Shown in pieces: positions 1,046 through 64,000 of a stretch of DNA of 64,000 bases. This stretch comes from Patescibacteria group bacterium. Its GTDB lineage: Bacteria; Patescibacteriota; WWE3; UBA101185; UBA10185. Where the stretch lies: NCBI GenBank assembly GCA_018825365.1, contig JAHJEV010000003.1, positions 387,669 through 451,668 of the forward strand, in the 5' to 3' direction. The notes under the pieces were generated by a model, which saw only the letters and a program-made list of their open reading frames with translations, was not told the DNA's origin and ran no database searches. Made by a program: the position numbers and the translations under genes. Position 1 is the stretch's first letter. Every line of letters begins with the position of its first letter.

Positions 1046-1119
1046 TGGGGGATCGTCTAAAGGTAGGACGTCGCGCCCTGAACGCGATAATTGGGGTTCG
1101 AGTCCCTGTCCCCCAGCCA
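1046..1119 (+). tRNA. tRNA-Gln (anticodon CUG) with unusual C at position 33
   Basis: Manually folded cloverleaf. Acceptor TGGGGGA/TCCCCCA, D-stem GTCT/GGAC, anticodon stem TCGCG/CGCGA with loop CCCTGAA (CTG at 34-36). T-arm TGGGG-TTCGAGT-CCCTG, discriminator G, encoded CCA. Confidence 0.6.
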
Positions 1120-1199
1120 GAACGGGCACCCTATGCGTCCCGCTTCCCTCGAATACACTACAACAGCTTGATAAAAACCCTATTGAAAATCTCTTAGTT

Positions 1200-1232
1200 C
1201 GAACCAAAATGAGCCTTTGGTGGCTTGATATA
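1200..1232 (+). promoter_or_regulatory. Extended -10 promoter (TGaTATAAT) directly upstream of ATG 1241, implying a leaderless or near-leaderless transcript
   Basis: Sequence cttgaTATAATactcatATG. TGnTATAAT lies 10 nt before the start codon and there is no SD. Confidence 0.35.
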
Positions 1233-1240
1233 ATACTCAT

Positions 1241-1972
1241 ATGAAGTTAAAGTCACTTGAAAATTTTGATGAATCAATAAATAAAACCCTGAATTTATAT
1301 AGACTTGTAAACCAAAATATTAACTTTACAAAGGGCTTTATAGAGTATTTTGGGATTGAAAAACTATCAGCTCAAGAAGATAGAAAACGCGCTGAAGGTT
1401 ACAAAAATATTCTTAATATGGAGATTCCAAATGAGAACCTCGAATATTTTTCTGAAATATCTTTTGTTGCAATGTTCTCAAACTTCGAATTATTCCAAGT
1501 AGACTTACTAAAAGAGCTCTGGACCAAATATTCTAAATCCTTTGATACAAATACTGGTTATACTTACAACGAAATTAAAGATTTTACAAGTATAAAGAAA
1601 TTTAGAGACTATATTATTGATAAAGAGGCAAATAGTAAGTCCATTAATATAGCTGACTGGGGAAAATACTTGGAAAATACATTCAAAATAACTCCTTTTG
1701 AAACAAAAAGAGGAAATTTATTAGACGGGATTATCCATATGGGACAGATACGGGATGCGTTAATGCATTCAGGAGGTAAAGTGAGCTCGATACTACTTTC
1801 AAAACTAAAAAAGTATAATTATGAAGGTGAAAAATATAACATAGGAGATCAATTTCTGAAAAAATGGACCTACGACAAAATATTTATCATTCAAGCAGGC
1901 TTACTCAAAGAAGTGCATAACAACATACAAAAATGGGCATCCGTGAAGAATAAACCATACGAAAGTTCTTGA
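1241..1972 (+). CDS. Hypothetical protein (first gene of the accessory island downstream of tRNA-Gln)
   Basis: 243-aa ORF, AT-rich, no recognisable motif. Its stop codon overlaps repeat copy a. Confidence 0.5.
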   Translation: MKLKSLENFDESINKTLNLYRLVNQNINFTKGFIEYFGIEKLSAQEDRKRAEGYKNILNMEIPNENLEYFSEISFVAMFSNFELFQVDLLKELWTKYSKSFDTNTGYTYNEIKDFTSIKKFRDYIIDKEANSKSINIADWGKYLENTFKITPFETKRGNLLDGIIHMGQIRDALMHSGGKVSSILLSKLKKYNYEGEKYNIGDQFLKKWTYDKIFIIQAGLLKEVHNNIQKWASVKNKPYESS

Positions 1973-1990
1973 CCGACATGATCAGCCAAT
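1965..1990 (+). repeat. Short island repeat copy a (GTTCTTGACCGACATGATCAGCCAAT)
   Basis: Member of the 7-copy family GTTCTAGACC-N7-CTCAGCCA. A TTGAATGTTC fragment follows at 2013..2022. Confidence 0.7.
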
Positions 1991-2120
1991 CGGGACGGCT
2001 AAGGCTGCCATCTTGAATGTTCAATTTTCTTTATTATCTAGCTTTAGAATTTCATACTATATAAATGGATGACATAAAATGGGGTTAATGCAAGGTGTGT
2101 CACTCGTTACCTTTAACGAA

Positions 2121-2747
2121 TTAAAGTAGCTTATTAATTTCGGTGTAAGAAAGCTCGACTCCGAATATTTCAGTAAAAATTTTATCTACATCCTCTGAAT
2201 TTTTGTTGCCACGTAATTTCCTAATAAAAACCAAAAGCTTGTCCTTTCCAAATTTGTTGATTAAACACCCTATAACGAAACCCGCCTCCTTGTATATTTT
2301 GGCGTCTGTTTTATCGTAGTAGTCCAAGAAAGTTGTAAATTTTGTAGGTCTCTGCTTGTAACGAGCCAATTGGTTTGAAAGATAGATGCTTAGGCCTTCT
2401 GTAAGCCATCTTGGATTATCTGTAGCCGTTAAACTCTTGTAAAAATAGTGAATAACCTCATGCTTAATAAGCCTGGAATACTCATCATCAGTGTATTTAT
2501 GATTGCTCTCCTTTTCATAGTTATTAGGGTTTAGTAAGAATATATATTTACCATTGCCCCAACCCACGACCCATGCTTCGGTTTTAGTACCGTAGGCATA
2601 ATCAATACATTCTCTATCATCTATTAAACAAAATTTTGGTTCATTGTATGGTTTTTTGACATCAAAGAAGCTTTCCACTTCGGAAAGACCCTTCAAACAT
2701 AGTTGTTCTATTTTTTGATCATCTAATTTAGAAACTTTTAATATCAT
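2121..2747 (-). CDS. Zincin-like metallopeptidase (HEVIH ... WLTEGLSIY; Peptidase_MA_2-like)
   Basis: 208 aa with HExxH plus downstream EGxxxY. Sits directly downstream on the same strand of the Cys-rich peptide and the rSAM gene. Confidence 0.55.
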   Translation of the reverse strand: MILKVSKLDDQKIEQLCLKGLSEVESFFDVKKPYNEPKFCLIDDRECIDYAYGTKTEAWVVGWGNGKYIFLLNPNNYEKESNHKYTDDEYSRLIKHEVIHYFYKSLTATDNPRWLTEGLSIYLSNQLARYKQRPTKFTTFLDYYDKTDAKIYKEAGFVIGCLINKFGKDKLLVFIRKLRGNKNSEDVDKIFTEIFGVELSYTEINKLL

Positions 2748-2823
2748 ATTATTTTAAAGAAAGATGGTACCTTCGGTGATTGTTGTTAGCATTCACAGAA
2801 GGTACCTAATTCGTACAGACACA

Positions 2824-2955
2824 TTACTGATCGTCAGTAGGCCCATTGTTGGTGTCATTGCACATGGTGTCACAGGGCGGATCTTGGCCAGGGCCATACA
2901 ACTCGTCACAATCACAACTCGCCTGCACATCAAGAGCTACCAAACCGAGTGCCAT
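2824..2955 (-). CDS. Candidate RiPP precursor peptide, 43 aa, Cys/Asp-rich (MALGLVALDVQASCDCDELYGPGQDPPCDTMCNDTNNGPTDDQ)
   Basis: Hand-translated from the minus strand. AGGAGGTGA lies 6 nt upstream of the ATG and 25 nt after the rSAM stop. Four Cys, each followed by Asp/Asn. Not in the supplied ORF track, which shows only an antisense 93-aa ORF here. Confidence 0.5.
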   Translation of the reverse strand: MALGLVALDVQASCDCDELYGPGQDPPCDTMCNDTNNGPTDDQ

Positions 2956-2977
2956 TGTACTCACCTCCTTCCGGTTT

Positions 2978-4288
2978 CTAGACTTGTTCGACAATATGTC
3001 TCGTTATTAAAATGCTCATCGTTTCAAGTGCGTCAGACTCAGTAGCATTATAAGCTTGCGCTATCTGCTTGGCAGTTACTCCCTTCTCATTTAACGTTGA
3101 TTTTAGTATAGCATGAAGGGTTGAGTCTATTGCCTGCCAGTTGGCCGAGCTTCGATAAGCAATATAACCAAAATCCTCCTTGCGGAACCTTACCGAGGAC
3201 AATAACCTAATTACTGCACTTGCTGGAAATAGCTCGGGTTTGGCTACAAATCGTTGCGCAACTGGTTTTGAACCCAAACAGTAGGGATCACTACCAGATA
3301 GGTTTGTCCCTGCATTTAGTGACTCTATTCGGCATCCCGCACTACAAAACTTTGGATACTCTCGACACTCAACTGCACATGCTGCGGGTATGAGACTTCC
3401 ATCTCTCCACATACCCATATTCTGCCATGCCCCCAAAAGCCCGATTTCAATAGCATTCCCATAGGATATCGGGGCATGAGAACAAGGACGAATAGCTCCG
3501 TCAAACCCGAGAGTACAGCTGGTTCTGGCAGCAGAACAATGCCTGTCTCCAAACTCAGCGCGAGTTTCGTCATCTGGAAACAAACAAGCCGGGTATGGCT
3601 CCAATGAAGCTACCTGAATGCCAAAATCCCTCTTCAACCTTACAAGCTCCCTAAACATCTGCTGAATTTGCTGAGTCAAGAGCGAATACCCACTAAAGTC
3701 CTTGCAATTGAAGGGTTTGGATACTTTTGTTGCACAAAATGCCTGCGCGCCCAATTCGTAGGCCAATTTCCCGGTTTCGTAGATGGTATGGAAATTCTTT
3801 TGGGAAATAACCATGTTTACCGACACCCGAAAGCCATTTGCTATCGCAAGCCTAATGCCTGCAACAGTTCGACGATAGGCACCTTTCGTCTGGGCGATAT
3901 TATCGTTTAAAGTTGGATCAGCAGACATTAAAGAAGTTAGTATCGCTCTGATACCTAGTTGCCTCAGTAAAGAAATCATGCGTTTGTTCATTAGAGCTAG
4001 ATTTGTGTTAATGCTTATACGAACCCCGGCATCTTTCAAGGCAAGTAGCTCTGGCATAAGCTGTTCCAACACACCCAACGGTTCTCCACCAGTAAGAGTT
4101 ACGTGAAATACCTTGCTGTTGATTATCTCCTGTGCAGATTTGTTATGGACTTCCAGTTGTTTTGCACTAAGAGTCCGTTTTGGTCGCTTACCCCTACGCC
4201 AGTAGTTGTAGCAATGCACACAATTGTACGTGCACCACGGCGTAAGCTCCCATTGCACATCCAATGGTGCAGATAGTCTTGTGTACAC
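2978..4288 (-). CDS. Radical SAM/SPASM-domain peptide-modifying enzyme with C-terminal PqqD-like (RRE-like) domain
   Basis: CTYNCVHC (CxxxCxxC) near the N-terminus. Cys-rich SPASM region (CSAARTSC...CSHAP...CAVECREYPKFCSAGCR). C-terminal ~90 aa resembles the PqqD winged helix (YIAYRSSANWQAIDSTLHAIL...VTAKQIAQAYNATESDALETMSILITRHIV). GC content is much higher than the flanks. Confidence 0.85.
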   Translation of the reverse strand: MYTRLSAPLDVQWELTPWCTYNCVHCYNYWRRGKRPKRTLSAKQLEVHNKSAQEIINSKVFHVTLTGGEPLGVLEQLMPELLALKDAGVRISINTNLALMNKRMISLLRQLGIRAILTSLMSADPTLNDNIAQTKGAYRRTVAGIRLAIANGFRVSVNMVISQKNFHTIYETGKLAYELGAQAFCATKVSKPFNCKDFSGYSLLTQQIQQMFRELVRLKRDFGIQVASLEPYPACLFPDDETRAEFGDRHCSAARTSCTLGFDGAIRPCSHAPISYGNAIEIGLLGAWQNMGMWRDGSLIPAACAVECREYPKFCSAGCRIESLNAGTNLSGSDPYCLGSKPVAQRFVAKPELFPASAVIRLLSSVRFRKEDFGYIAYRSSANWQAIDSTLHAILKSTLNEKGVTAKQIAQAYNATESDALETMSILITRHIVEQV

Positions 4289-4378
4289 GTTTCACCTCCA
4301 TATTTAGGCTGATTATTTGATTAACAAAGTTCTTCGGGACAAATATAGAATAAATGATACAAAAAGTCAAGTTATTTG

Positions 4379-4537
4379 GCGTCATTGATACTTAAAAGGC
4401 AGTAAATGACAACCAACATTGCATAATATACCCAAGAGAATAAAACGAGACACTGAAACTGCCCTTTTTATAGTGTCTCATTTGTCTCATTTACATCCTG
4501 GAGAGTAAAATAGTTCTGAACCCGTATGCTCAGCCAG
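4379..4537 (+). repeat. Long island repeat copy 1 (~158 bp, ~90% identical to 9441..9597), ending in short-repeat copy b (4513..4537)
   Basis: Direct alignment by eye. Contains a TGcaTAATAT extended-10-like element and the hairpin GAGACACT-N17-AGTGTCTC (4447..4479). Lies upstream of ORF 4666. Confidence 0.7.
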
Positions 4538-4665
4538 TGAGATGAAAGCCGTGTATGTCCATTTATGTCACACAATGTTTACACTACCCCCGTATGCATT
4601 AGGATAGAGATTTAACCTCGGAGATGATATTCTAAAGTGGACGAAAATGTGTTTAAAAATTCATT

Positions 4666-5247
4666 ATGAAGCTTAATATATTTATAAAGTCGCTTGTGCT
4701 GAATGATTGTATTTTTTGGTTTTCAAACTATCTATTTCTTTCTATTGCAAGTATCCATATTTCAAAAAATATGGACAACGGTTCTACGCTAACTGCGGGC
4801 GTGTCTTTTGGAACATATTTCTTATTCAGGGGAATCACTGACCTGGTAAGCCCCCATCTTCACAAGAAACTTAGCACTAAAAACAAAGTTATTACTCTCA
4901 TTTTGTGTGTTTGTGCAGTATCCGCTGCCTTTTTCCTACTTTCATTTGTCAACAACGCCTATCTTGCAATCGTACTATTCGCAGCTATAGGTATCAGCCT
5001 AGGGATTTATAATCCCATCAAATATGCAGTTTTTTCTCTGCACTTGGATAAAAGTAAAGAGGAAAAAGAGTGGGGGCTAATGGATGGTGTTGGATTAATA
5101 AGTATCGCCCTCGCATCTTACCTTGGAAGTTATTTAGCGGAGAAAATTGGATTTGTTTACCTTCTAAGGATCTCCAGTCTTGGTTTTTTGCTTTCTACGC
5201 TTCCACTATTATTAAGGATACCGAGCTTACGCAAATATATATTTTAG
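4666..5247 (+). CDS. Membrane protein resembling the C-terminal half of an MFS transporter (possibly truncated)
   Basis: 193 aa with ~6 predicted TM helices. No N-terminal half is present. Confidence 0.4.
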   Translation: MKLNIFIKSLVLNDCIFWFSNYLFLSIASIHISKNMDNGSTLTAGVSFGTYFLFRGITDLVSPHLHKKLSTKNKVITLILCVCAVSAAFFLLSFVNNAYLAIVLFAAIGISLGIYNPIKYAVFSLHLDKSKEEKEWGLMDGVGLISIALASYLGSYLAEKIGFVYLLRISSLGFLLSTLPLLLRIPSLRKYIF

Positions 5248-5303
5248 CGACCGTGCAGAAATATTGGATCCTGGGCTGGGCCGTTAAGCCTGGGGAATAT
5301 AAT

Positions 5304-5329
5304 GGTTCTAGACCGACATGCTCAACCAG
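5304..5329 (+). repeat. Short island repeat copy c (GGTTCTAGACCGACATGCTCAACCAG)
   Basis: Family member lying between the ORF 4666 stop and the methyltransferase start. Confidence 0.7.
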
Positions 5330-5336
5330 TAAAAAT

Positions 5337-5933
5337 ATGTTAATGAATAAAATAGATATATTGTTAATAAATACCCCATTTAGAAAGTGGCTCTTAGATC
5401 GTGCTACCAAGAAGTACTATTTTGAGTATTTTCATGAATTGAAGGAGAAGACAGTTTTGGAAATAGGATGTGGAAGCGGTGGAGGGACGGAACTTATTCT
5501 AGAATATTTTTCCCCGCAACAAATAATTGCTACTGATCTTGATCCAAGATTAATTTCTCTGGCTAAAAGAAATGTTAAAAACAAAAAGGTTACTTTTGAA
5601 AAGGCTGACGCAACGAAGCTAACCTATGAGAATGAGGGGTTTGATGCAGTCTTTGATTACGGTGTAATTCATCATATTCCTTTGCCAGAATGGAAAAAAT
5701 GTTTAAACGAGACATATAGAGTGTTAAAACCGGGTGGAAAATTATTTGTATGGGATTTATCAATTGAATTTTTCAATACCGTTTATGGGAGAATAATCAA
5801 ATTCTTTAGTGTACATCCATACAGTAAGATGTATAGAAAACAAGAATTCGTGAATTACCTAAACTCAATAGGTTTTAAAATTATCAAAAGGGCTGAAGGA
5901 CCGAGGTACTTTGTTGTTATCGCAAAAAAGTAG
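5337..5933 (+). CDS. Class I SAM-dependent methyltransferase
   Basis: VLEIGCGSGGG motif I and an acidic motif II (ATDLD). Start set at ATG 5337 (MLMNKIDIL...). The longer track ORF from 5070 would read through repeat copy c. Confidence 0.7.
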   Translation: MLMNKIDILLINTPFRKWLLDRATKKYYFEYFHELKEKTVLEIGCGSGGGTELILEYFSPQQIIATDLDPRLISLAKRNVKNKKVTFEKADATKLTYENEGFDAVFDYGVIHHIPLPEWKKCLNETYRVLKPGGKLFVWDLSIEFFNTVYGRIIKFFSVHPYSKMYRKQEFVNYLNSIGFKIIKRAEGPRYFVVIAKK

Positions 5934-6006
5934 AAATTATGAGATTAACCCAATTCTTATAGTAGATCGCTATTGCATGATTAGCGTTTAGTTATAATGA
6001 TTGAAT

Positions 6007-6034
6007 GGTTCTAGACCGACATGCTCAGCCAACC
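6007..6034 (+). repeat. Short island repeat copy d (GGTTCTAGACCGACATGCTCAGCCAACC), preceded by TTGAATG
   Basis: Family member after the methyltransferase stop, flanked by a GGTT/AACC inverted repeat. Confidence 0.7.
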
Positions 6035-6140
6035 AGCTTTCATAGCAACATTAACTCAGTAGTTCGTAGGTATGGGTGGAACTCCACAAAATAAAAGGGC
6101 TTGCTTTGGTAACAAACCCTTTTGGACTATAGCGAAACCG

Positions 6141-6371
6141 TTAAATGTGATGAACTGGCTCTTCTTTACAAAGCTTATGTACAAAGCAAGACACATTTGG
6201 ATACTTAGTATCCAGCTGCTCGAACAAAAGCTTTAAGTCAACTCCAGAAGCCACAAAAGTTCCGTCTACATAGGCAACATAAGTGCCTTCCAGCAACTCC
6301 CCCAAAAGGCGATCTTTATCCTTCTCGTAAGCTTGCCAATTAACATCCGGTTTATTTGGTTTATTGGCCAT
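6141..6371 (-). CDS. Hypothetical small protein
   Basis: 76-aa ORF preceded by aaggagactgaaaATG. Confidence 0.4.
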   Translation of the reverse strand: MANKPNKPDVNWQAYEKDKDRLLGELLEGTYVAYVDGTFVASGVDLKLLFEQLDTKYPNVSCFVHKLCKEEPVHHI

Positions 6372-6482
6372 TTTCAGTCTCCTTCTTTTAGATTTTCTGG
6401 ATTATAGCACTTTCATAGAAGTTCCATATCTAATACTTAATACGAATTAACTAGAGTCAGTCAAAAAGTTCAAATAGCGTAC

Positions 6483-7601
6483 GTGACTGCCAGCCATTTT
6501 TCAACAAAGTTTTTTGCTACAATTAAGAAAACTATTATGAAGATTAAAGATTGGCATTTAATAGGCTTATCAGTATTTATATTCTTCTTAGATTTACTCA
6601 CATTAGGAAATCGTCAAGTTATTGATAATCAAGTAACTAATAAGATTGCTTTTGTTATTGCGTTACTGTGTGTTTTTACTTTTCTGTTTGGCATCATAAA
6701 AACTGTACGCAATATTTTTTCACATAGGAAAGTTGTAGATAAAATAAAAATAGAGCAGGAGGAAAAGCAGGGAAGTAGAGCAACCGGGGTAGAGATACGC
6801 CTTCGTAAACTTGTTGGAGTACTACTGATAGTGAGTGTTTCTCCATTGCTTTTATTCGGCCCATATATTATTTTGGGATTACCCAATCTTTTTTTAGCCT
6901 TATATCTGTTGTTAAACCGCCGATATCATCTTCTTTTTGATGGTTTACTTGTTTTCATTGGATGCGTAGGTTTCTATCTAAATAATTTAACTTTATATAA
7001 AAAAATAGAACTGTCTGTTTGTCCTGGATTAATCAATATCAATGAAATTCTTATAGTAAATGTTATCCCAGGATTAATCACATCTCTTTTTTTACTGGCT
7101 CCGTTATTCCTTTTTGTGGGAGACATTATTGCTCGATTGAAACTCGCGCACAAAGAAAGGTTATGTGTTATTTCCTTAATAACTATTGTTCTAGCGTTAC
7201 TTTTTCTTCCCTTTTTACATACTCCGAGAGTTGCTTTAGGAGAAGCAACAGGCGGTGGAACGGGCGGTGGAAAAGGTGGTCTACAACATTTTTCTGCATG
7301 GAATACTCAATTTCTCATGTCATATGATCAAACCTTAAAGTCTTATATATTCACTGCTCAAATGCCCAATCAAGACAGCAACAATTCCTCTTCAATAACT
7401 AACATCTGTGTTGATGGTAACCTTATCTCGATTACTAAAGAAAATGACATGTTACAGGTAGACAATGGGGTAATTTCCGATGGAAAAATTTCGGTAGCTC
7501 CCGGACAGACGGCTACTATTAAACTGGTTTCTCAAAAACCCTTCTATGTGGTTTCTTTATTTGAAGGAATATTTCATTATTTAAATAGCTTTCTTAAATA
7601 A
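6483..7601 (+). CDS. Hypothetical polytopic membrane protein with Gly-rich segment (GEATGGGTGGGKGG)
   Basis: 372-aa ORF with multiple hydrophobic helices. Start uncertain: GTG 6483 or ATG 6537. Confidence 0.45.
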   Translation: MTASHFSTKFFATIKKTIMKIKDWHLIGLSVFIFFLDLLTLGNRQVIDNQVTNKIAFVIALLCVFTFLFGIIKTVRNIFSHRKVVDKIKIEQEEKQGSRATGVEIRLRKLVGVLLIVSVSPLLLFGPYIILGLPNLFLALYLLLNRRYHLLFDGLLVFIGCVGFYLNNLTLYKKIELSVCPGLININEILIVNVIPGLITSLFLLAPLFLFVGDIIARLKLAHKERLCVISLITIVLALLFLPFLHTPRVALGEATGGGTGGGKGGLQHFSAWNTQFLMSYDQTLKSYIFTAQMPNQDSNNSSSITNICVDGNLISITKENDMLQVDNGVISDGKISVAPGQTATIKLVSQKPFYVVSLFEGIFHYLNSFLK

Positions 7602-7612
7602 GTTAAAACGTA

Positions 7613-7660
7613 GAGACTCTCAGCTGGTTCTAGACCCGTATATTCAGCCAGAAAGGTCTC
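7613..7660 (+). repeat. Short island repeat copy e (core GGTTCTAGACCCGTATATTCAGCCAG, 7626..7651) with flanking imperfect inverted repeat GAGACTCTCAGCTGG / CCAGAAAGGTCTC
   Basis: Family member immediately after the ORF 6483..7601 stop. Confidence 0.7.
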
Positions 7661-8254
7661 TTGTTTCTCCACCGATATGTATCTTATACTAACTATGTGG
7701 TAAGCGAGATTATTCCAGTGGAACCAATAGAAGTATTAGCATCTTTTTTGGTATCTAACAATGTTATTGGATTTGTAAATGAGCATAAATCATTTAATGG
7801 TGCCACGCTCCAGCGTTATATAAAACAACAATATGATTTCTATAATAAATTGCCCAAAACAATTTTAGAAGCAAGGGTACACGATAAAAATAGGCTGAGT
7901 AGAATATTTAAGCACAGGTGGTTTTTACAAATAGTACCGTTAAAGTATATAGGGGTATGGCCGGGTGTTGGAGATTTACCTAAAGAATGGAGTGCTTTTT
8001 CTGTGCTTGACATTAGCAAACGTCTAGAGGGTACAAACAAAACCCTCCATTCAGTTCAAAAAATATATTCTATGATTCCATACATTAATGAAATACTTTA
8101 TCTATTACCCCCAATTCTTGTTATGGGTAGTGAGATACGAGATATAAACAATAACCAACTAATGCCATTTGATGCAGACGATGGCTCTCACAGGTGTATA
8201 GCTGCTGCTTTAAACGGCGTGGAAGAAGTTAAATGCTATGTCGGACTATCCTAA
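7661..8254 (+). CDS. Hypothetical protein with ParB/Srx/DGQHR-like motif (FDADDGSHRCIAAALNG)
   Basis: 197-aa ORF. The DGSHR..AA motif resembles the ParB-like nuclease and DndB DGQHR signature. Confidence 0.4.
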   Translation: MFLHRYVSYTNYVVSEIIPVEPIEVLASFLVSNNVIGFVNEHKSFNGATLQRYIKQQYDFYNKLPKTILEARVHDKNRLSRIFKHRWFLQIVPLKYIGVWPGVGDLPKEWSAFSVLDISKRLEGTNKTLHSVQKIYSMIPYINEILYLLPPILVMGSEIRDINNNQLMPFDADDGSHRCIAAALNGVEEVKCYVGLS

Positions 8255-8316
8255 TCAGATCTAATATAAATTTATTAATTAGATACACTCCGATGCCTAA
8301 GTTATAATATCAAAGT

Positions 8317-9369
8317 ATGGTAACTACTAACGACCAAAGCGAATCCAATAAAGTGCAACGTAAAACGTATGTTGAGCATCACGGTAAGGTCGCTGAGGCA
8401 GGTGATAGATTTAAACACGTTATGGCAATAGCACTGGATCCAATATCTAAATATGAAAACGGCATTATTCGCTGCATTACTAGCCGACAAGGGAATGTAG
8501 AAATAGGCGGTTACATAGACCGAAGCGAACTTCACACAATTAAAGGCAACTCCCTTGAGCACTTTATCATTGGGGAAAGATTAAAAATGCGTAACGAAGA
8601 CGAAATCATTAAACAGGTCGGTGGGGAAGACCTGGATTTCATAGGACTTGAAGACCCAGACATTTTTATTGACGAACATACTGGTCTTACACATATATAC
8701 TTCACAATGCCCTTCTTGAGCAAAAAAGAGAATATGAGCTTGGTGAATCTTGGACATGCTGTTGGCAATGACCTAAATTCCCTTGAAATGACATTGCCTG
8801 TTCTTACAGCAGAGTATAAAACAAATGCATGCGCAAAGGAGGTTTCTATATCCCCACTCAATAGACTGGGGGTTAGAAATAACCTTATAGAGTCAAGCGC
8901 CTATGAAGAGGGTATTTGGTATTCCACAGTGAGAATTGCAATAGCAAAAGACTTAGGTAAATCATGGGAGTTTGGAGAAACTGTATTCCATCCAAACGAG
9001 CACAAGATTCCATGGATTGCCGGCCACGCTTCCCCAGGGCCACTTTTACCCAAAACATTTATTGATCTTGGCAAAGGAAGGATGCTTGGCATTATAAACG
9101 GACGCGAGGCTAACCAGATTATCGGTAAGAACATTAAATATGGAATGTTCTCAGTTGGACTTTTTGTTTATGATTATGAGAATGGAAAAATCGAATGGGT
9201 ATCACCAAAACCCCTAATCCAGGATAGCCTGGCAAAAACTATCACATTCGCCAGTCAGTTCATAGAAACAAATAAAGGCATGGGAATTCTGTATGCCCAT
9301 GTTGATGACTCTTTCGTGCGTGCTTACACTTTGTATGCAGAGGGTATCAGGTCATTACTACCATTTTAA
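8317..9369 (+). CDS. Hypothetical protein
   Basis: 350-aa ORF with no motif I can name confidently. A beta-propeller-like glycosidase is possible but unsupported. Confidence 0.45.
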   Translation: MVTTNDQSESNKVQRKTYVEHHGKVAEAGDRFKHVMAIALDPISKYENGIIRCITSRQGNVEIGGYIDRSELHTIKGNSLEHFIIGERLKMRNEDEIIKQVGGEDLDFIGLEDPDIFIDEHTGLTHIYFTMPFLSKKENMSLVNLGHAVGNDLNSLEMTLPVLTAEYKTNACAKEVSISPLNRLGVRNNLIESSAYEEGIWYSTVRIAIAKDLGKSWEFGETVFHPNEHKIPWIAGHASPGPLLPKTFIDLGKGRMLGIINGREANQIIGKNIKYGMFSVGLFVYDYENGKIEWVSPKPLIQDSLAKTITFASQFIETNKGMGILYAHVDDSFVRAYTLYAEGIRSLLPF

Positions 9370-9440
9370 TACTCAAATAAGTGTTTAAGTTAACCCTAGC
9401 CAAAGAAAACTACATCTAGTTAACAGATAGACAAAAACTA

Positions 9441-9597
9441 GCGTCATTGATACTTAAAGACAATAAATAACAACTAACATTGCATAATATATCCTAGAGA
9501 ATAAAATGAGACACTGAAACTACCCTTTTATACTGTCTCGCTTGTCTCATTTACATCCTGGAGAATAAGAAGGTTCTAAACCCGTATGCTCGGCCAA
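9441..9597 (+). repeat. Long island repeat copy 2 (~157 bp), ending in short-repeat copy f (9572..9597)
   Basis: ~90% identical to 4379..4537, with the same hairpin and promoter-like element. Lies upstream of ORF 9640. Confidence 0.7.
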
Positions 9598-9639
9598 TTA
9601 AAAATTAAGAAATGTAATTTTTTGTTGTATTATTAGAAT

Positions 9640-10134
9640 ATGAAAGTTCCTAAAGTATTGAAGTTCTCTGGATTATTTATCATTTTATTTTTGGTCATTT
9701 TTTATGCTTCCACTCTTGTCGCTTACCGATATGGTGCAAAATGTCATTGCTATGGATTCAAAACCAACGGCTTGTGTTTGGGTATAAATACGGTATGTAC
9801 AGGGTTGGGACCAGCTTTGCATGTAAATTTTAATAACAATATGACTGAAAACTGTAATTCCCAAAAAGACGCGAATACTTTAACTATAGATTTTGCTCAA
9901 TGTAAAAATTGTGAAGAAATAATTTACGTCGGTTTTGGCTCAACAACGTATGAGATGTATAAATCTCAAGATGATAATTACTGCACAATGCAATATGGAG
10001 GGGAAATCGAAAATCCTAATTGGAAAGGTGATTTGAACACCACATGTACAGTTCCAAGAAACATTGGAATCAAAACCTTTAATATTACCAACTATGGTGT
10101 GGATTTTTCATCTCTAGCGGCATATTGTAAATAG
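9640..10134 (+). CDS. Secreted cysteine-rich protein (N-terminal signal/TM helix)
   Basis: 164 aa. Hydrophobic N-terminus followed by 13 Cys spread through a polar domain. Confidence 0.5.
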   Translation: MKVPKVLKFSGLFIILFLVIFYASTLVAYRYGAKCHCYGFKTNGLCLGINTVCTGLGPALHVNFNNNMTENCNSQKDANTLTIDFAQCKNCEEIIYVGFGSTTYEMYKSQDDNYCTMQYGGEIENPNWKGDLNTTCTVPRNIGIKTFNITNYGVDFSSLAAYCK

Positions 10135-10137
10135 CTA

Positions 10138-10163
10138 GTTCTAGACCTATATACTCAGCCAAG
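10138..10163 (+). repeat. Short island repeat copy g (GTTCTAGACCTATATACTCAGCCAAG)
   Basis: Family member beginning 3 nt after the TAG of ORF 9640..10134. Last copy seen in the window. Confidence 0.7.
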
Positions 10164-63210: not shown

Positions 63211-63591
63211 TTAGAAAAAAAGCTTGTACCAAGCGTACCAGTTAGCATCTTTTAAACTGTTTTCTTTCTTCTCACTCCTATCCTGCGTACCCAAAACTCC
63301 GCTTGAAAATACATTTTTTCCACTATCTACAACAACATACACCTGCTCTCCCGGTTTTATCATATTCAGGTCGTTCCTGGCTTTTTCCTCAATATAAGCA
63401 TCAGTTTTTTTGTACTCTATATCGGAATTTAAATCCTCAACCTGCTTTATCATCCCTGCCACCTCTTTTTGGACGTCATCAAGCCTCTCTTTGCTCTTCA
63501 GAATATTAAAGGTAGACCTGATAAATCCCACAGATAAAGCAAAAAATAAGGCTGTTAAGAGGATGTATTTAAACTGCTTCAGTTTGGACAT
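63211..63591 (-). CDS. FtsB/DivIC-like septum formation initiator (TM + coiled coil)
   Basis: Start placed at MSKLKQFKYILLTALFFAL. Single TM followed by a leucine-zipper-like coiled coil. Confidence 0.45.
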   Translation of the reverse strand: MSKLKQFKYILLTALFFALSVGFIRSTFNILKSKERLDDVQKEVAGMIKQVEDLNSDIEYKKTDAYIEEKARNDLNMIKPGEQVYVVVDSGKNVFSSGVLGTQDRSEKKENSLKDANWYAWYKLFF

Positions 63592-63725
63592 TACCTTGAT
63601 AATAGGCAATATATTGACACATTTCAACCTGTTTGATACTCTACCCCATAGAAATTTGCGTTTAACCTTATTTTTGGTATAATGGCGCATGAGCAGGGGT
63701 TCTCCCCACAAGGGAAAATACTATT

Positions 63726-64000
63726 ATGAAACTAGAAATAACTCATAAAAAATTCGTAGATCAGCTTAAATCCGAAGGAAAATCGGAGGCAACTGTTGTT
63801 GCATACAACAAGGATATTGAACAAATTGTCACGTTTGTTGCAAAAGATGGTGTTTTAGATGTTGAAGATTTAAAAATCGAAAATCTTCAAGCATTCATGA
63901 ACAGCCTTGTTGAGCAAAACTACACACCAAAATCAATTTCTAGAAAAACAAATGCTGCAAGAACTTTTATTAAATACCTAACAAAAGAAGGTTACATAAA
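63726..64000 (+). CDS. Tyrosine recombinase XerC/XerD-like, N-terminal core-binding domain (3' partial at window end)
   Basis: SEATVVAYNKDIEQ...PKSISRKTNAARTFIKYL resembles the phage-integrase SAM-like N-domain. Confidence 0.55.
   Translation, partial: MKLEITHKKFVDQLKSEGKSEATVVAYNKDIEQIVTFVAKDGVLDVEDLKIENLQAFMNSLVEQNYTPKSISRKTNAARTFIKYLTKEGYI

What the first reader, a model, noticed from the sequence alone, without database searches (positions are those of the whole stretch)
1965..10163. Seven-copy ~26-bp repeat family (GTTCTAGACC-N7-CTCAGCCA), each directly 3' of a same-strand ORF: cassette-array-like island after tRNA-Gln
Copies lie at 1965, 4513, 5304, 6007, 7626, 9572 and 10138. Each begins within a few nt of the stop codon of a plus-strand ORF: hypothetical, MFS-like fragment, methyltransferase, membrane protein, 350-aa hypothetical, Cys-rich secreted protein. 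Several have short flanking inverted repeats (GGTT...AACC, CTGG...CCAG, GAGAC...GTCTC). The core contains two near-palindromic half-sites, TCTAGA and GCTCAGC. No copies were noticed elsewhere in the 64 kb. Conserved sites punctuating unrelated promoterless-looking ORFs resemble a chromosomal cassette array or CALIN (compare VCR-type attC sites), a REP/MITE-like family, or a shared terminator/operator. No integrase is present in this part of the window. The nearest recombinase is the xerC/D-like fragment at 63.7 kb.
Basis: seen in the sequence. Interest (0 to 1): 0.8.

Follow-up and report, generated by a model that had tools for sequence, protein, structure and literature searches.

The report
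Pseudo-tRNA-Gln ends bounding gene cassettes
The seven repeats are 24-nt look-alikes of the 3' end of the neighbouring tRNA-Gln gene that mark the right-hand junctions of small DNA units inserted one after another behind that tRNA; the same site family is found across candidate-phyla-radiation (CPR/Patescibacteria) bacteria, so this is a tRNA-anchored cassette island rather than an integron.

Summary
The repeat is real, but its core is GTTCTAGACC-N6-CTCAGCCA (24 nt), not N7. It has seven plus-strand copies, found nowhere else in the 64 kb. The only other match is the 3' end of tRNA-Gln itself (1096-1119), where the array begins.

The motif ("M") occurs in 95 genome stretches, almost all CPR. 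Every stretch that holds a tRNA holds tRNA-Gln, upstream of M and co-oriented with it. M travels with its left flank; homology ends at the terminal CCA.

A relative with 88-92% identity has the same flanks but different cassettes. All four breakpoints fall on sites.

M does not fold, so it is not an attC, REP or terminator. 114 island ORFs contain no tyrosine integrase.

A CPR-wide family of large serine recombinases (LSRs) integrates exactly at the CCA end of tRNA-Gln. One member sits at an M site in the same geometry, so M works as a mimic of the tRNA arm of attB. The distal arm of these LSR elements has a different sequence, so the integrase-less cassettes are not simply LSR-element relics. 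The enzyme that moves them remains unidentified.

Verdict: a tRNA-Gln accretion or cassette island, a new variant of a known kind. It is integron-like in layout but not in mechanism.

The parts
1046..1119 (+). tRNA-Gln(CTG) gene with encoded CCA. Its last 24 nt (1096-1119, GTTCGAGTCCCTGTCCCCCAGCCA) are the founding, attB-type member of the repeat family, and the array starts immediately after its CCA.
   Evidence: ARAGORN; Rfam tRNA 52.9 bits; eighth match to the motif; PWM 11 bits. Homology to the relative L116 stops exactly at 1119.
1120..1145 (+). 'R-box' right half-site GAACGGGCACCCTATGCGTCCCGC directly after the tRNA CCA. It resembles the integrase-proximal (P') arm of CPR serine-recombinase elements and recurs after tRNA-Gln or M in other genomes.
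   Evidence: The P'-like start is present after 13/140 M and 4/31 tRNA-Gln-type 3' ends, against 0.7% of control CCA positions.
1120..1988 (+). Unit 1: R-box, a 243-aa hypothetical ORF (1241-1972) and site M1 (1965-1988, GTTCTTGACCGACATGATCAGCCA). The ORF's stop codon lies inside M1. The unit is absent from the 88-92% relative.
1989..4536 (+). Unit 2: three minus-strand genes (208-aa MA-peptidase-like, a 43-56-aa Cys-rich peptide, a 436-aa radical SAM enzyme), then extension X (4379-4512) and site M2 (4513-4536). The unit's left end, ATCGGGACGGC, is P'-like.
4537..5328 (+). Unit 3: a 193-aa MFS half-size ORF (4666-5247) and site M3 (5305-5328).
5329..6031 (+). Unit 4: a SAM-methyltransferase ORF (5337-5933) that starts 8 nt after M3, and site M4 (6008-6031, perfect consensus).
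6032..6496 (+). Unit 5a: a minus-strand 76-aa DUF5678-like ORF and a degenerate, longer site at 6468-6496 (GTTCAAATAGCGTACGTGACTGCCAGCCA). Homology to the relative resumes at this site.
6497..7650 (+). Unit 5b: a 354-aa membrane protein (6537-7601) and site M5 (7627-7650). It is shared with the relative (91%), and homology stops inside the last bases of M5.
7651..9596 (+). Unit 6: 185/197-aa and 350-aa hypothetical ORFs, extension X (9441-9572) and site M6 (9573-9596). The relative has three other units in its place. A 99.9%-identical metagenome contig has a different methyltransferase gene upstream of the 75-nt X-M.
9597..10161 (+). Unit 7: a 164-aa Cys-rich secreted-type ORF (9640-10134) and the last site M7 (10138-10161). 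Conserved core genes follow (NUDIX and onwards).

Best explanation
The repeats are attachment-site half-sites: 24-27-bp mimics of the last 24 nt of the tRNA-Gln gene (T-loop GGTTCnAnnCC ... CAGCCA). Each marks the right-hand junction of a small DNA unit inserted by site-specific recombination at the CAGCCA/CCA end, either of tRNA-Gln itself or of an earlier mimic. Repeated insertion, replacement and decay have built a tandem array of eight units behind the tRNA.

Shown:
- the site family is related to tRNA-Gln and restricted to loci downstream of tRNA-Gln across CPR bacteria;
- the site is inherited with the DNA on its left, and homology ends at the CCA;
- cassette content turns over between related genomes exactly at these sites;
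- a CPR-wide family of large serine recombinase (LSR) elements integrates at precisely this position of tRNA-Gln, and in one case at an M site, so M can serve as the tRNA-side (B) arm of an attB.

Inferred:
- the integrase-less units are moved, or were moved, in trans by a recombinase that reads the tRNA-like arm;
- the LSR family is the only candidate seen so far, but its own distal (P) arm is a different sequence, so the units are not simple LSR-element remnants;
- co-orientation and tight packing suggest read-through expression from upstream, as in integrons.
For: 1. Relation to the tRNA. The only extra hit in the window is the tRNA-Gln 3' end. Base-by-base reading of the sequences gives 16 of 25 identical positions, including GGTTC and CAGCCA.

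2. Genome scan. 95 stretches match against about 17 expected by chance, and nearly all are Patescibacteria. Of 19 stretches with any tRNA, all 19 carry tRNA-Gln (CTG or TTG), upstream of M and co-oriented with it. Some arrays mix true partial tRNA-Gln ends with M.

3. Polarity. 142 pairs of copies share only the left flank and 5 share only the right. Five Saccharibacteria genomes are identical through ...CTCAGCCA and diverge at the next base.

4. Turnover. MAG CAZLHE01 (L116+L070) shares the flanks and units 5b and 7 but has other units elsewhere. The breakpoints fall at 1119, 6468-6496, 7627-7650 and 9573-9596. Contig L146 is 99.9% identical yet has a different gene upstream of X-M6. The ~55 nt that follow tRNA-Gln in L042 also follow an M site in L134 (there beyond an inserted LSR element).

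5. Recombinase link.
- In L030/L134 the LSR ORF ends ...WLSMSV*, which is the antisense of M.
- Its 68-70% homologues P0003 and P0004 end WLGDRDSNP, the antisense of tRNA-Gln, and overlap that gene.
- P0107 and P0037 also overlap tRNA-Gln, while P0005 and P0012 overlap tRNA-Asn.
- 52 of 120 homologues have antisense-T-loop 'DSN' tails.
- The L134 element (about 7.2 kb: S24 repressor, primase-helicase, LSR) is bounded by M|P' on one side and by a P arm (AAAATCATCCCACTTGGACAGCCA)|B' on the other.

6. Cargo is diverse and lacks any recombinase other than the LSR. It includes defence genes: CBASS SMODS and Cap15, Shedu, restriction-modification.
Against: - No recombinase lies in or beside the window's array.
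- Only one LSR gene directly abuts an M site. blastx finds no LSR remnants next to any other M or tRNA-Gln copy in the 95 stretches.
- The LSR elements' own P arm differs from M, and none of the window's sites is of that type. LSR integration followed by decay therefore does not by itself produce M-ended units.
- By the published rules, serine integrases recombine attP with attB, not B-type with B-type sites (PMC3783163).
- Right half-sites after M are poorly conserved.
- Near-identical strains from seven assemblies carry the same array, so turnover is slow or rare.
- No circular cassette or empty site was recovered.
Confidence: 0.7

Rival explanations
1. Integron-type cassette array without integrase (CALIN): the repeats are attC sites recombined as folded single strands by an IntI encoded elsewhere.
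For: The layout is integron-like. Most ORFs are co-oriented, each followed by a conserved site, and some gaps are too short for a promoter: M3 to ATG is 8 nt in the window, and M to ATG is 12-16 nt in L116. Cassette content varies between relatives.
Against: 66-nt windows on both strands fold no better than shuffles (z -1.1 to +1.1). The conserved part is 24-27 nt with no second arm. GTTCTAG does not fit GTTRRRY. No tyrosine recombinase was found among 114 island ORFs or by phmmer across 95 stretches. The site copies a tRNA end and the array starts at a tRNA gene, not at an attI next to intI.
Confidence: 0.03
2. RNA-level element: M is a tRNA-like 3' tag (T-loop plus CCA mimic) on mRNAs that directs 3'-end processing, CCA-related metabolism or stability. 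Its clustering near tRNA-Gln would then be secondary.
For: M is intergenic in 123 of 135 cases. The upstream gene is co-oriented 87:29, usually ending 0-100 nt before M. M keeps the tRNA positions G53 T54 T55 C56 A58 C61 and the G73-CCA end.
Against: No partner strand exists for a T stem or acceptor stem, and there is no covariation or stable fold. There is no Rfam match even at E<=5. About a quarter of copies follow opposite-strand genes. Homology breakpoints and an LSR-element insertion fall exactly at the CCA, which is a DNA-level property.
Confidence: 0.07
3. Inert scars: the copies are decaying duplicates of the tRNA-Gln 3' end left by ancient integrations and no longer serve as recombination sites. 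Cassette differences between relatives would arise by ordinary homologous recombination and deletion.
For: The array is identical in all near-identical strains sampled. No integrase is nearby. Several copies in the window carry 1-2 substitutions. One junction in the relative retains only GCGCCA.
Against: M is a distinct consensus, different from the tRNA, and it is conserved across Saccharibacteria, WWE3, Microgenomates and Peregrinibacteria at up to 46 bits. Random decay would not produce that. One M hosts a complete LSR element inserted at the CCA. The spacer variants are inherited with the left flank.
Confidence: 0.12
4. Host-recombinase (Xer-type) modules: the units are integrase-less elements that exploit a chromosomally encoded tyrosine recombinase, as IMEX elements do at dif or pdif modules do on Acinetobacter plasmids. 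M would be the 11-6-11-type site.
For: The units carry no recombinase. The site has a two-block architecture with a less conserved 6-nt centre. Phylum-wide conservation would fit a conserved host enzyme. A xerC/D-like gene is present in the window (63727 onwards) and in related genomes.
Against: The two blocks are not inverted repeats of each other and do not resemble dif consensus arms (reading of the sequence plus general knowledge). The crossover maps to the 3' CAGCCA rather than to the central N6. The site copies a tRNA end. No experimental or contextual link to Xer was found.
Confidence: 0.08
5. REP/MITE-like dispersed repeat or shared intrinsic terminator/operator.
For: It is a short conserved intergenic repeat that often lies just after stop codons.
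Against: It occurs at one locus in 64 kb and at only one or a few loci per genome. It has no palindrome and no hairpin followed by a T run. It has a fixed orientation and a fixed link to tRNA-Gln.
Confidence: 0.02

Closest known systems
tRNA-targeted integrative elements and the accretion ('additive') islands they build, e.g. tycheposon islands of Prochlorococcus (bioRxiv 10.1101/2020.12.28.424599)
   Same: The island starts at the 3' end of a tRNA gene and contains direct repeats that resemble the tRNA 3' part. New units are added in tandem. Cargo is variable, with adaptive and defence genes, and differs between close relatives. Related loci contain elements with an integrase plus a primase/helicase replication module. 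A minority of tycheposons also use large serine recombinases.
   Different: Here the repeat is not a literal partial tRNA. It is a separate consensus conserved across a whole radiation. Units are very small (0.5-2.5 kb), tightly packed, mostly single-gene and without integrases. The only integrases seen are serine, not tyrosine, recombinases, and their own distal arm is a different sequence from the repeat.
Integron cassette arrays / CALINs
   Same: ORF-plus-site units are arranged head to tail and mostly co-oriented, with little room for promoters. Functions are diverse and mostly unknown. Content varies between strains. The platform site is fixed (attI in integrons, the tRNA-Gln end here).
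   Different: There is no IntI, no attC hairpin and no R''/R' boxes. The site is a 24-27-bp double-strand-type sequence copied from a tRNA.
Large serine integrase attB/attP systems (A118/LI, Bxb1, phiC31; PMC3783163)
   Same: The LSR gene abuts the junction. The crossover lies at the centre of a roughly 50-bp region. The integrase-proximal arm carries an inverted copy of the outer motif (GGTTTTGA against GGTTCTAGA), about 24 bp from the junction on each side, as read from the L134 junction sequence. tRNA-Gln and M align base for base as B-type arms.
   Different: Classical LSRs target protein genes and do not leave arrays of B-arm mimics. B-type by B-type recombination is not a known LSR reaction.
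IMEX elements at dif / pdif modules
   Same: Integrase-less modules are bounded by short conserved sites and presumably moved by an enzyme encoded elsewhere.
   Different: The site is unrelated to dif. All copies are in direct orientation. The array is anchored to a tRNA gene.

Membership tests
Integron / CALIN (attC array) | attC: an imperfect palindrome of about 55-140 nt that folds into a hairpin with extrahelical bases | tested here: not met
   All seven copies, in 66-nt windows on both strands, fold at -1.4 to -6.1 kcal/mol with z -1.1 to +1.1 against shuffles. The conserved part is only 24-27 nt.
Integron / CALIN (attC array) | R''/R' core sites RYYYAAC ... GTTRRRY at the cassette boundary | tested here: not met
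   The site starts GGTTCTAGACC. GTTCTAG has C and T where purines are required, and there is no RYYYAAC partner.
Integron / CALIN (attC array) | intI tyrosine recombinase with attI at the array head (absent by definition in a CALIN, but present in related genomes) | tested here: not met
   No Phage_integrase domain among 114 island ORFs from 30 loci. phmmer with XerD finds none in the 95 stretches. The array head is a tRNA gene.
tRNA-targeted integrative island (Campbell-type insertion) | The island begins at the 3' end of a tRNA gene and is co-oriented with it | tested here: met
   Window: tRNA-Gln at 1046-1119, with sites at 1965-10161 all on the + strand. In 19 of 19 tRNA-containing stretches the tRNA is tRNA-Gln, upstream and co-oriented.
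tRNA-targeted integrative island (Campbell-type insertion) | Direct repeats derived from the tRNA 3' part bound the inserted DNA | tested here: met
   M matches the tRNA-Gln end at 16 of 25 positions (my reading of the alignment) and at 11 bits. No other tRNA in the window scores. True partial tRNA-Gln ends co-occur with M in L047, L026, L048 and L084.
tRNA-targeted integrative island (Campbell-type insertion) | An integrase gene inside the element, next to one junction | tested here: not met
   None in the window's island. The feature is met only in related loci, where an LSR abuts tRNA-Gln (L130-L133, L137, L138) or M (L134).
tRNA-targeted integrative island (Campbell-type insertion) | Presence/absence polymorphism with breakpoints at the repeats | tested here: met
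   Four of four breakpoints against MAG CAZLHE01 fall on sites. L146 gives a further variant.
Large serine recombinase attachment site | An LSR (Resolvase + Recombinase + zinc ribbon) acts at the site | tested here: inconclusive
   There is one natural insertion of a complete LSR element at an M site, and close homologues lie at tRNA-Gln. No LSR is in the window, and there are no LSR remnants beside other M copies.
Large serine recombinase attachment site | A site of about 40-50 bp with two imperfectly symmetric half-sites around a central dinucleotide, with attB zinc-ribbon motifs 5 bp closer to the centre than in attP (PMC3783163) | tested here: inconclusive
   In L134/L130/L131, reading the junction sequences shows outer motifs GGTTC(T/G)A... 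and ...TCAAAACC lying symmetrically about 24 bp from the junction. M and the tRNA align as the same (B) type. The P arms are a different sequence (AAAATCWTCCCAYYTGGNSAGCCA). Right half-sites after most M copies are not conserved.
REP/BIME or MITE | Palindromic unit, many dispersed copies on both strands | tested here: not met
   no palindrome, a single locus in the window, a single orientation.
Intrinsic terminator | A G+C-rich stem-loop followed by a T run | tested here: not met
   The only terminator-like hit at any site is a weak minus-strand match over M2, and none lies on the plus strand. Terminator-like counts in the region are close to those of shuffles.
Xer/dif-type site (IMEX, pdif module) | A 28-bp site with two partly palindromic 11-bp arms around a 6-bp centre where exchange occurs, recombined by host XerC/D | tested here: inconclusive
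   The two-block layout with a variable 6-nt centre is present. However, the arms are not inverted repeats, and breakpoints map to the 3' CAGCCA. Xer activity is not testable with these tools.

The most novel reading that the evidence does not exclude
CPR/Patescibacteria bacteria may possess an integron-analogous gene-capture platform. In it the 3' end of the tRNA-Gln gene plays the part of attI. A 24-27-bp pseudo-tRNA end at the 3' side of each promoterless cassette plays the part of attC. A trans-acting recombinase inserts, excises and shuffles integrase-less cassettes; it is not an IntI, and may be a serine recombinase or an unrecognised enzyme. The same sites double as landing pads for LSR-type plasmid-like or phage-like elements. 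Some cassettes carry a further ~50-nt conserved module (TGTCTCATT x2 ... CCTGGAGA) of unknown role.
Probability: 0.3. Interest if true: 0.85.

Novelty: new variant of a known kind. Interest (0 to 1): 0.6.

Why it matters
CPR bacteria have tiny genomes and few recognised mobile elements, and it is poorly understood how they acquire accessory and defence genes. A site family conserved across the radiation and anchored to tRNA-Gln would give a concrete, searchable marker for their flexible gene pool. Such sites bound small units that carry methyltransferases, transporters, RiPP genes, NUDIX hydrolases, CBASS, Shedu and restriction systems.

The finding also identifies a large family of serine integrases with defined natural attB sites (tRNA-Gln and tRNA-Asn 3' ends) and a defined attP arm. 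These could be tested directly as genome-engineering tools.

If the integrase-less cassettes prove to be mobile, this would be a second kind of cassette-capture platform, mechanistically distinct from the integron.

Tried and rejected
- attC-like or terminator-like folding of each copy on both strands: nothing beyond shuffles.
- Rfam at gathering and at E<=5: only the tRNAs.
- RNA consensus fold of 16 X-M elements: -2.5 kcal/mol, no covariation.
- A sigma-70 promoter inside X: the -10 position is not conserved among copies (my reading of the sequences); promoter-like counts equal shuffles.
- Viral contigs: the relaxed motif gives only chance-level single hits, none with the X box. No viral relatives of the L030 LSR were found.
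- Tyrosine recombinase search (phmmer with XerD) over all stop-to-stop ORFs of the 95 stretches: only the window's truncated xerC/D-like gene.
- The commonest gene family next to M (cluster 0, a zinc-ribbon protein of 337-522 aa) has no recombinase domain and no PDB relative. It sits among defence genes and is probably cargo.
- blastx for LSR pseudogene remnants to the right of every M and tRNA-Gln end: only L030.
- The idea that M is the P arm of the LSR attP was rejected. The distal ends of the L134 and L138 elements, and the attP-state C-terminal tails WLA(R/G)WDDFRT seen in some homologues, define a different P arm.
- Metagenome search for an empty or alternative junction (CAGCCA plus the flank of M7): one relevant contig with the same junction but a different gene upstream of X-M6; no empty site. 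This contig could also be an assembly join across identical X-M copies.
- The distal end of the LSR elements integrated at tRNA-Gln in L130-L133 lay beyond the 10 kb that could be fetched.
- The literature library contains no paper with the motif or the X box; the hits are unrelated primers.
- Archaeal and alphaproteobacterial motif hits lie inside conserved ~555-562-aa ORFs and are coincidental.

Full report
**Observation.** With a 6-nt gap, GTTCTAGACC-N6-CTCAGCCA matches seven times with 0-2 mismatches, all on the + strand, at 1965, 4513, 5305, 6008, 7627, 9573 and 10138. Chance expectation is 0.02. The search returned an eighth hit with three mismatches: 1096-1119, the last 24 nt of the tRNA-Gln(CTG) gene at 1046-1119.

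A weight matrix built only from copies in other genomes finds exactly these seven (26-46 bits) plus the tRNA-Gln end (11 bits). It finds nothing else on either strand of the 64 kb, and none of the other four tRNA genes scores. A degenerate, 5-nt-longer site at 6468-6496 became visible only through comparison with a relative. Copies 2 and 6 share about 135 nt of extra upstream sequence.

The claim that each copy lies 'directly 3' of a same-strand ORF' is only partly true. Distances from the stop codon run from an 8-nt overlap to 203 nt, and copy 2 follows a minus-strand operon.

**What the site is not.** Folded as single-stranded DNA, 66-nt windows around every copy, on both strands, are no more stable than dinucleotide shuffles (z between -1.1 and +1.1). 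There is no terminator-like stem followed by a T run on the plus strand at any copy and no Rfam match even at E<=5. A logo of 129 distinct copies shows conservation only over aaG-GTTCTAGACC-nnnATG-CTCAGCCA-a. These results exclude attC sites, REP-type palindromes and intrinsic terminators.

**Distribution.** An exact-match scan of one genome per prokaryotic species returned 95 stretches, against roughly 17 expected by chance from the size of the collection. Almost all are Patescibacteria: Saccharibacteria, WWE3, Levy-, Shapiro-, Woyke- and Gottesmanbacteria, and Peregrinibacteria. The few archaeal and alphaproteobacterial hits lie inside conserved ~555-562-aa ORFs and are coincidences.
- In CPR genomes the site is intergenic.
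- The gene upstream is co-oriented 87 times against 29 and usually ends 0-100 nt before the site.
- Nineteen stretches contain tRNA genes. All nineteen contain tRNA-Gln (CTG or TTG), always upstream of the sites and on the same strand. Only three other tRNAs were seen in total.
- All these tRNA-Gln genes end ...CAGCCA (two of them lack the terminal CA in the gene call).
- Several arrays mix literal partial tRNA-Gln 3' ends, hybrids and M copies.

The repeat is therefore a diverged but separately conserved derivative of the tRNA-Gln 3' end, tied to the region downstream of that gene.

**Polarity and breakpoints.** Comparing the 400 nt on either side of all copies gives 142 pairs that share only the left flank and 5 that share only the right. 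In five Saccharibacteria genomes the left flank and the site are identical through ...CTCAGCCA, and the sequences diverge at the very next base. The site therefore belongs to the DNA on its left, and the junction is at its terminal CCA.

MAG CAZLHE01 (contigs L116 and L070, which overlap) is 88-92% identical to the window in four places: the gene upstream of tRNA-Gln, the tRNA, unit 5b, and unit 7 with the downstream core genes. It carries different units in between. Homology ends or resumes at 1119 (the tRNA CCA), at 6468-6496, inside the last bases of M5 (7627-7650), and at the GCCA of M6.

In L116 the units are packed like integron cassettes, with 12-16 nt from the site to the ATG and stop codons 0-10 nt before the next site. 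The TCTAGA of the site supplies the stop codon for ORF 1241-1972 in the window (as a TGA variant), for an 87-aa ORF in L116 and, on the other strand, for the recombinase gene in L030.

Seven assemblies of near-identical strains carry the same array, and their contigs often break at the duplicated X-M. One metagenome contig is 99.9% identical over 6.5 kb yet has a different methyltransferase gene immediately upstream of the 75-nt X-M6 module. That is either a strain variant or an assembly join to a further X-M copy.

**Gene content.** The window's units encode:
- a 243-aa hypothetical protein;
- a radical-SAM enzyme with a small Cys-rich peptide and a peptidase-like protein;
- half of an MFS transporter;
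- a SAM methyltransferase;
- a DUF5678-like protein;
- a 354-aa membrane protein;
- two hypothetical proteins;
- a Cys-rich secreted-type protein.

Among 114 ORFs from islands in 30 loci, the commonest Pfam families each occur only two or three times: GNAT, MFS, Mrr, sortase, NUDIX and others. No tyrosine recombinase is present. The only recombinase domains are Resolvase and Recombinase, in two proteins. Units ending in the extended site often carry defence genes: SMODS and Cap15 (CBASS), Shedu, type I restriction, DUF2779 and DUF4238.

**The recombinase link.** In L030 (the whole contig is L134) a 526-aa large serine recombinase gene runs antisense into the site. Its last residues, WLSMSV*, are the translation of the reverse complement of M.

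The homology search returned more than 2,700 relatives, mostly unnamed; the few with taxon labels are CPR.
- The two closest distinct relatives (P0003 and P0004, 68-70% identity) end WLGDRDSNP..., the antisense of the tRNA-Gln 3' end. Their genes do overlap tRNA-Gln in four contigs.
- P0107 and P0037 do the same at another tRNA-Gln. P0005 and P0012 do so at tRNA-Asn.
- In all, 52 of the 120 best homologues carry an antisense-T-loop 'DSN' tail.

The elements have a common module: repressor or restriction-modification cargo, DUF5659, a Toprim/AAA_25 primase-helicase and the recombinase, followed by the tRNA. The sequence to the right of the junction is homologous whether the left partner is tRNA-Gln or M: AGCGGAACGCTCAATTTCAAAACCC, ATCGGTACGGACATCCTCAAAACCC, AGAGGTACGAGTATCCGCAAAACCC.

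In L134 the element can be delimited. It runs 7.2 kb from M|P' to a distal arm, CTAAAATCATCCCACTTGGACAGCCA. Beyond that arm lie ~55 nt that, in another genome (L042), directly follow tRNA-Gln. This is a natural insertion of a serine-recombinase element into a site made of M plus a native tRNA-Gln trailer. M therefore functions as a stand-in for the tRNA arm (B) of attB. M aligns base for base with the tRNA arm, whereas the elements' P arm is a different sequence (AAAATCWTCCCAYYTGGNSAGCCA). That P arm also explains the alternative C-terminal tails WLA(R/G)WDDFRT seen among the homologues. Reading the L134, L130 and L131 junction sequences, the outer motifs on the two sides of the junction (GGTTCTAGA / TCAAAACC) lie symmetrically about 24 bp from it. 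This matches the size of serine-integrase sites (PMC3783163).

**Right-hand partners.** Immediately after the tRNA CCA in the window lies GAACGGGCACCCTATGCGTCCCGC. Related 'R-boxes' follow tRNA-Gln in several lineages and follow M in at least seven loci. A relaxed pattern shared by R-boxes and the recombinase-proximal arms (AGnnG[AT]AC-like) follows 13 of 140 M copies and 4 of 31 tRNA-Gln-type 3' ends, against 0.7% of control CCA positions. M1 in the window is followed by ATCGGGACGGC, close to the L130 arm ATCGGTACGGA. Some unit junctions therefore look like complete two-armed sites. Most right arms are not recognisably conserved.

**Interpretation.** The best-supported reading is a tRNA-Gln accretion island. 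Units were inserted by site-specific recombination at the CAGCCA/CCA end of the tRNA gene or of an earlier mimic, and each unit brought its own mimic at its right end.
- Shown: the relation to the tRNA, the polarity, the breakpoints, the phylum-wide conservation, and the use of the same point by serine-recombinase elements.
- Not shown: which enzyme moves the integrase-less units.

They are not simple relics of the serine-recombinase elements, because those end in a different arm. No recombinase remnants flank the other copies, and by the published rules serine integrases do not recombine two B-type sites. The units could be mobilised in trans by an enzyme not yet recognised, or by an unusual reaction of these recombinases, or they could now be largely fixed.

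The conserved X module upstream of 42 of 150 copies has the blocks TTTTTATAsTGTCTCATTTGTCTCATTT and CCTGGAGA, at variable distance from M. It has no RNA fold or covariation. It looks like a set of protein-binding sites, and its role is unknown.

**Comparison and novelty.** The closest known systems are tRNA-targeted integrative elements and the tandem islands they build. The tycheposon islands of Prochlorococcus are an example: partial tRNAs flank elements, repeated integration pushes older elements inward, and a minority use large serine recombinases.

The layout resembles an integron array, but every structural criterion of integrons fails. The literature library holds no paper containing the motif or the X box.

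I therefore rate this a new variant of a known kind. It is a tRNA-anchored island whose att repeat has become a distinct, radiation-wide consensus bounding very small integrase-less cassettes, together with a large family of CPR serine integrases whose genes overlap tRNA 3' ends.

Confidence in the att-site/accretion-island reading is about 0.7. Confidence that a serine recombinase moves the cassettes themselves is well below 0.5.

Noticed in passing
window 2121-4288 (minus strand): A compact RiPP-like cluster sits inside unit 2. It comprises a radical SAM enzyme (436 aa, 2978-4288), a small Cys/Asp-rich peptide gene just downstream (43 aa as called in L121; ORF 2824-2994) and a 208-aa protein with a weak MA-peptidase match. 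A good minus-strand promoter match lies at 4370-4342.
   Followed up: partly
window 4379-4512 and 9441-9572; 42 of 150 copies in other loci: A conserved extension 'X' lies upstream of some sites: TTTTTATA(C/G)TGTCTCATTTGTCTCATTT (a tandem 9-nt repeat, with an inverted GAGACAC further upstream in the window) followed by CCTGGAGA or another block, 28-71 nt before M. It is conserved at 80-100% across CPR classes and has no RNA structure. It may be an operator or an accessory-protein binding site.
   Followed up: partly
L130-L143 and proteins P0001-P0120: In this CPR serine-recombinase family the 3' end of the gene crosses the attachment site, so the C-terminal tail changes with integration state. 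Tails are WLA(R/G)WDDFRT... across attP, WLGDRDSNP... across tRNA-Gln, WLPR(V/L)DSN... across tRNA-Asn and WLSMSV* across M. This could be a built-in switch or simply a consequence of gene position.
   Followed up: partly
L139 1495-3141 and 10001-11599: Two serine-recombinase genes lie in tandem next to tRNA-Asn. The inner one still reads across an intact attP-type arm (ACGAAAATCATCCCATCTGGCGAGCCA), and a truncated pseudo-tRNA-Asn end (GTTCTGTATGGGGAGCCA) lies nearby. This suggests that analogous mimic sites exist for tRNA-Asn.
   Followed up: no
window 1965-1988; L116 2055-2078; L030 3730-3753: The TCTAGA (or TCTTGA) inside the site provides stop codons on both strands. ORFs that run into the site from either side terminate there: ORF 1241-1972 in the window, an 87-aa ORF in L116, and the recombinase in L030.
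   Followed up: no
L043, L065, L095, L111, L092, L099, L036, L113, L049: A family of 337-522-aa proteins with several zinc ribbons and a conserved TNWRLM..G..YRLGYL.G.L.(A/G)YE.EEDL motif lies directly upstream of X-M. It sits beside CBASS (SMODS, Cap15), Shedu, DUF4238 and DUF2779 genes. It has no Pfam or PDB match and is possibly an uncharacterised defence protein.
   Followed up: partly
window 4666-5247: The MFS_1 match covers only profile positions 6-174 of 347. The 193-aa ORF is a half-size transporter, either truncated at the cassette boundary or a six-helix half-protein.
   Followed up: no
window 63211-64000: A DivIC-like septum protein gene (minus strand) is followed by the start of a xerC/D-like gene at 63727, cut by the window end, next to tRNA-Met. 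The same Xer-DivIC-tRNA-Met neighbourhood appears in L139/L140, so this is the housekeeping Xer rather than an island integrase.
   Followed up: partly
L121, L122, L128, L129 (contig ends); L123, L125: Independent assemblies of the same organism break at the duplicated X-M (window ~4463-4536) or near tRNA-Gln. The repeats therefore fragment MAGs at precisely this island, which will bias surveys based on draft genomes.
   Followed up: no
L116 3700-3724 and L066 3159-3185: In two genomes the sequence right after the tRNA-Gln CCA (ACTAGCCTGGAGAATTACC / TATAGCTTGGAGGAACCGCTTAC) resembles the inner part of the X module (CTAGCCTGGAGAAAGTTACC), which normally precedes M. I have no explanation for this.
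   Followed up: no
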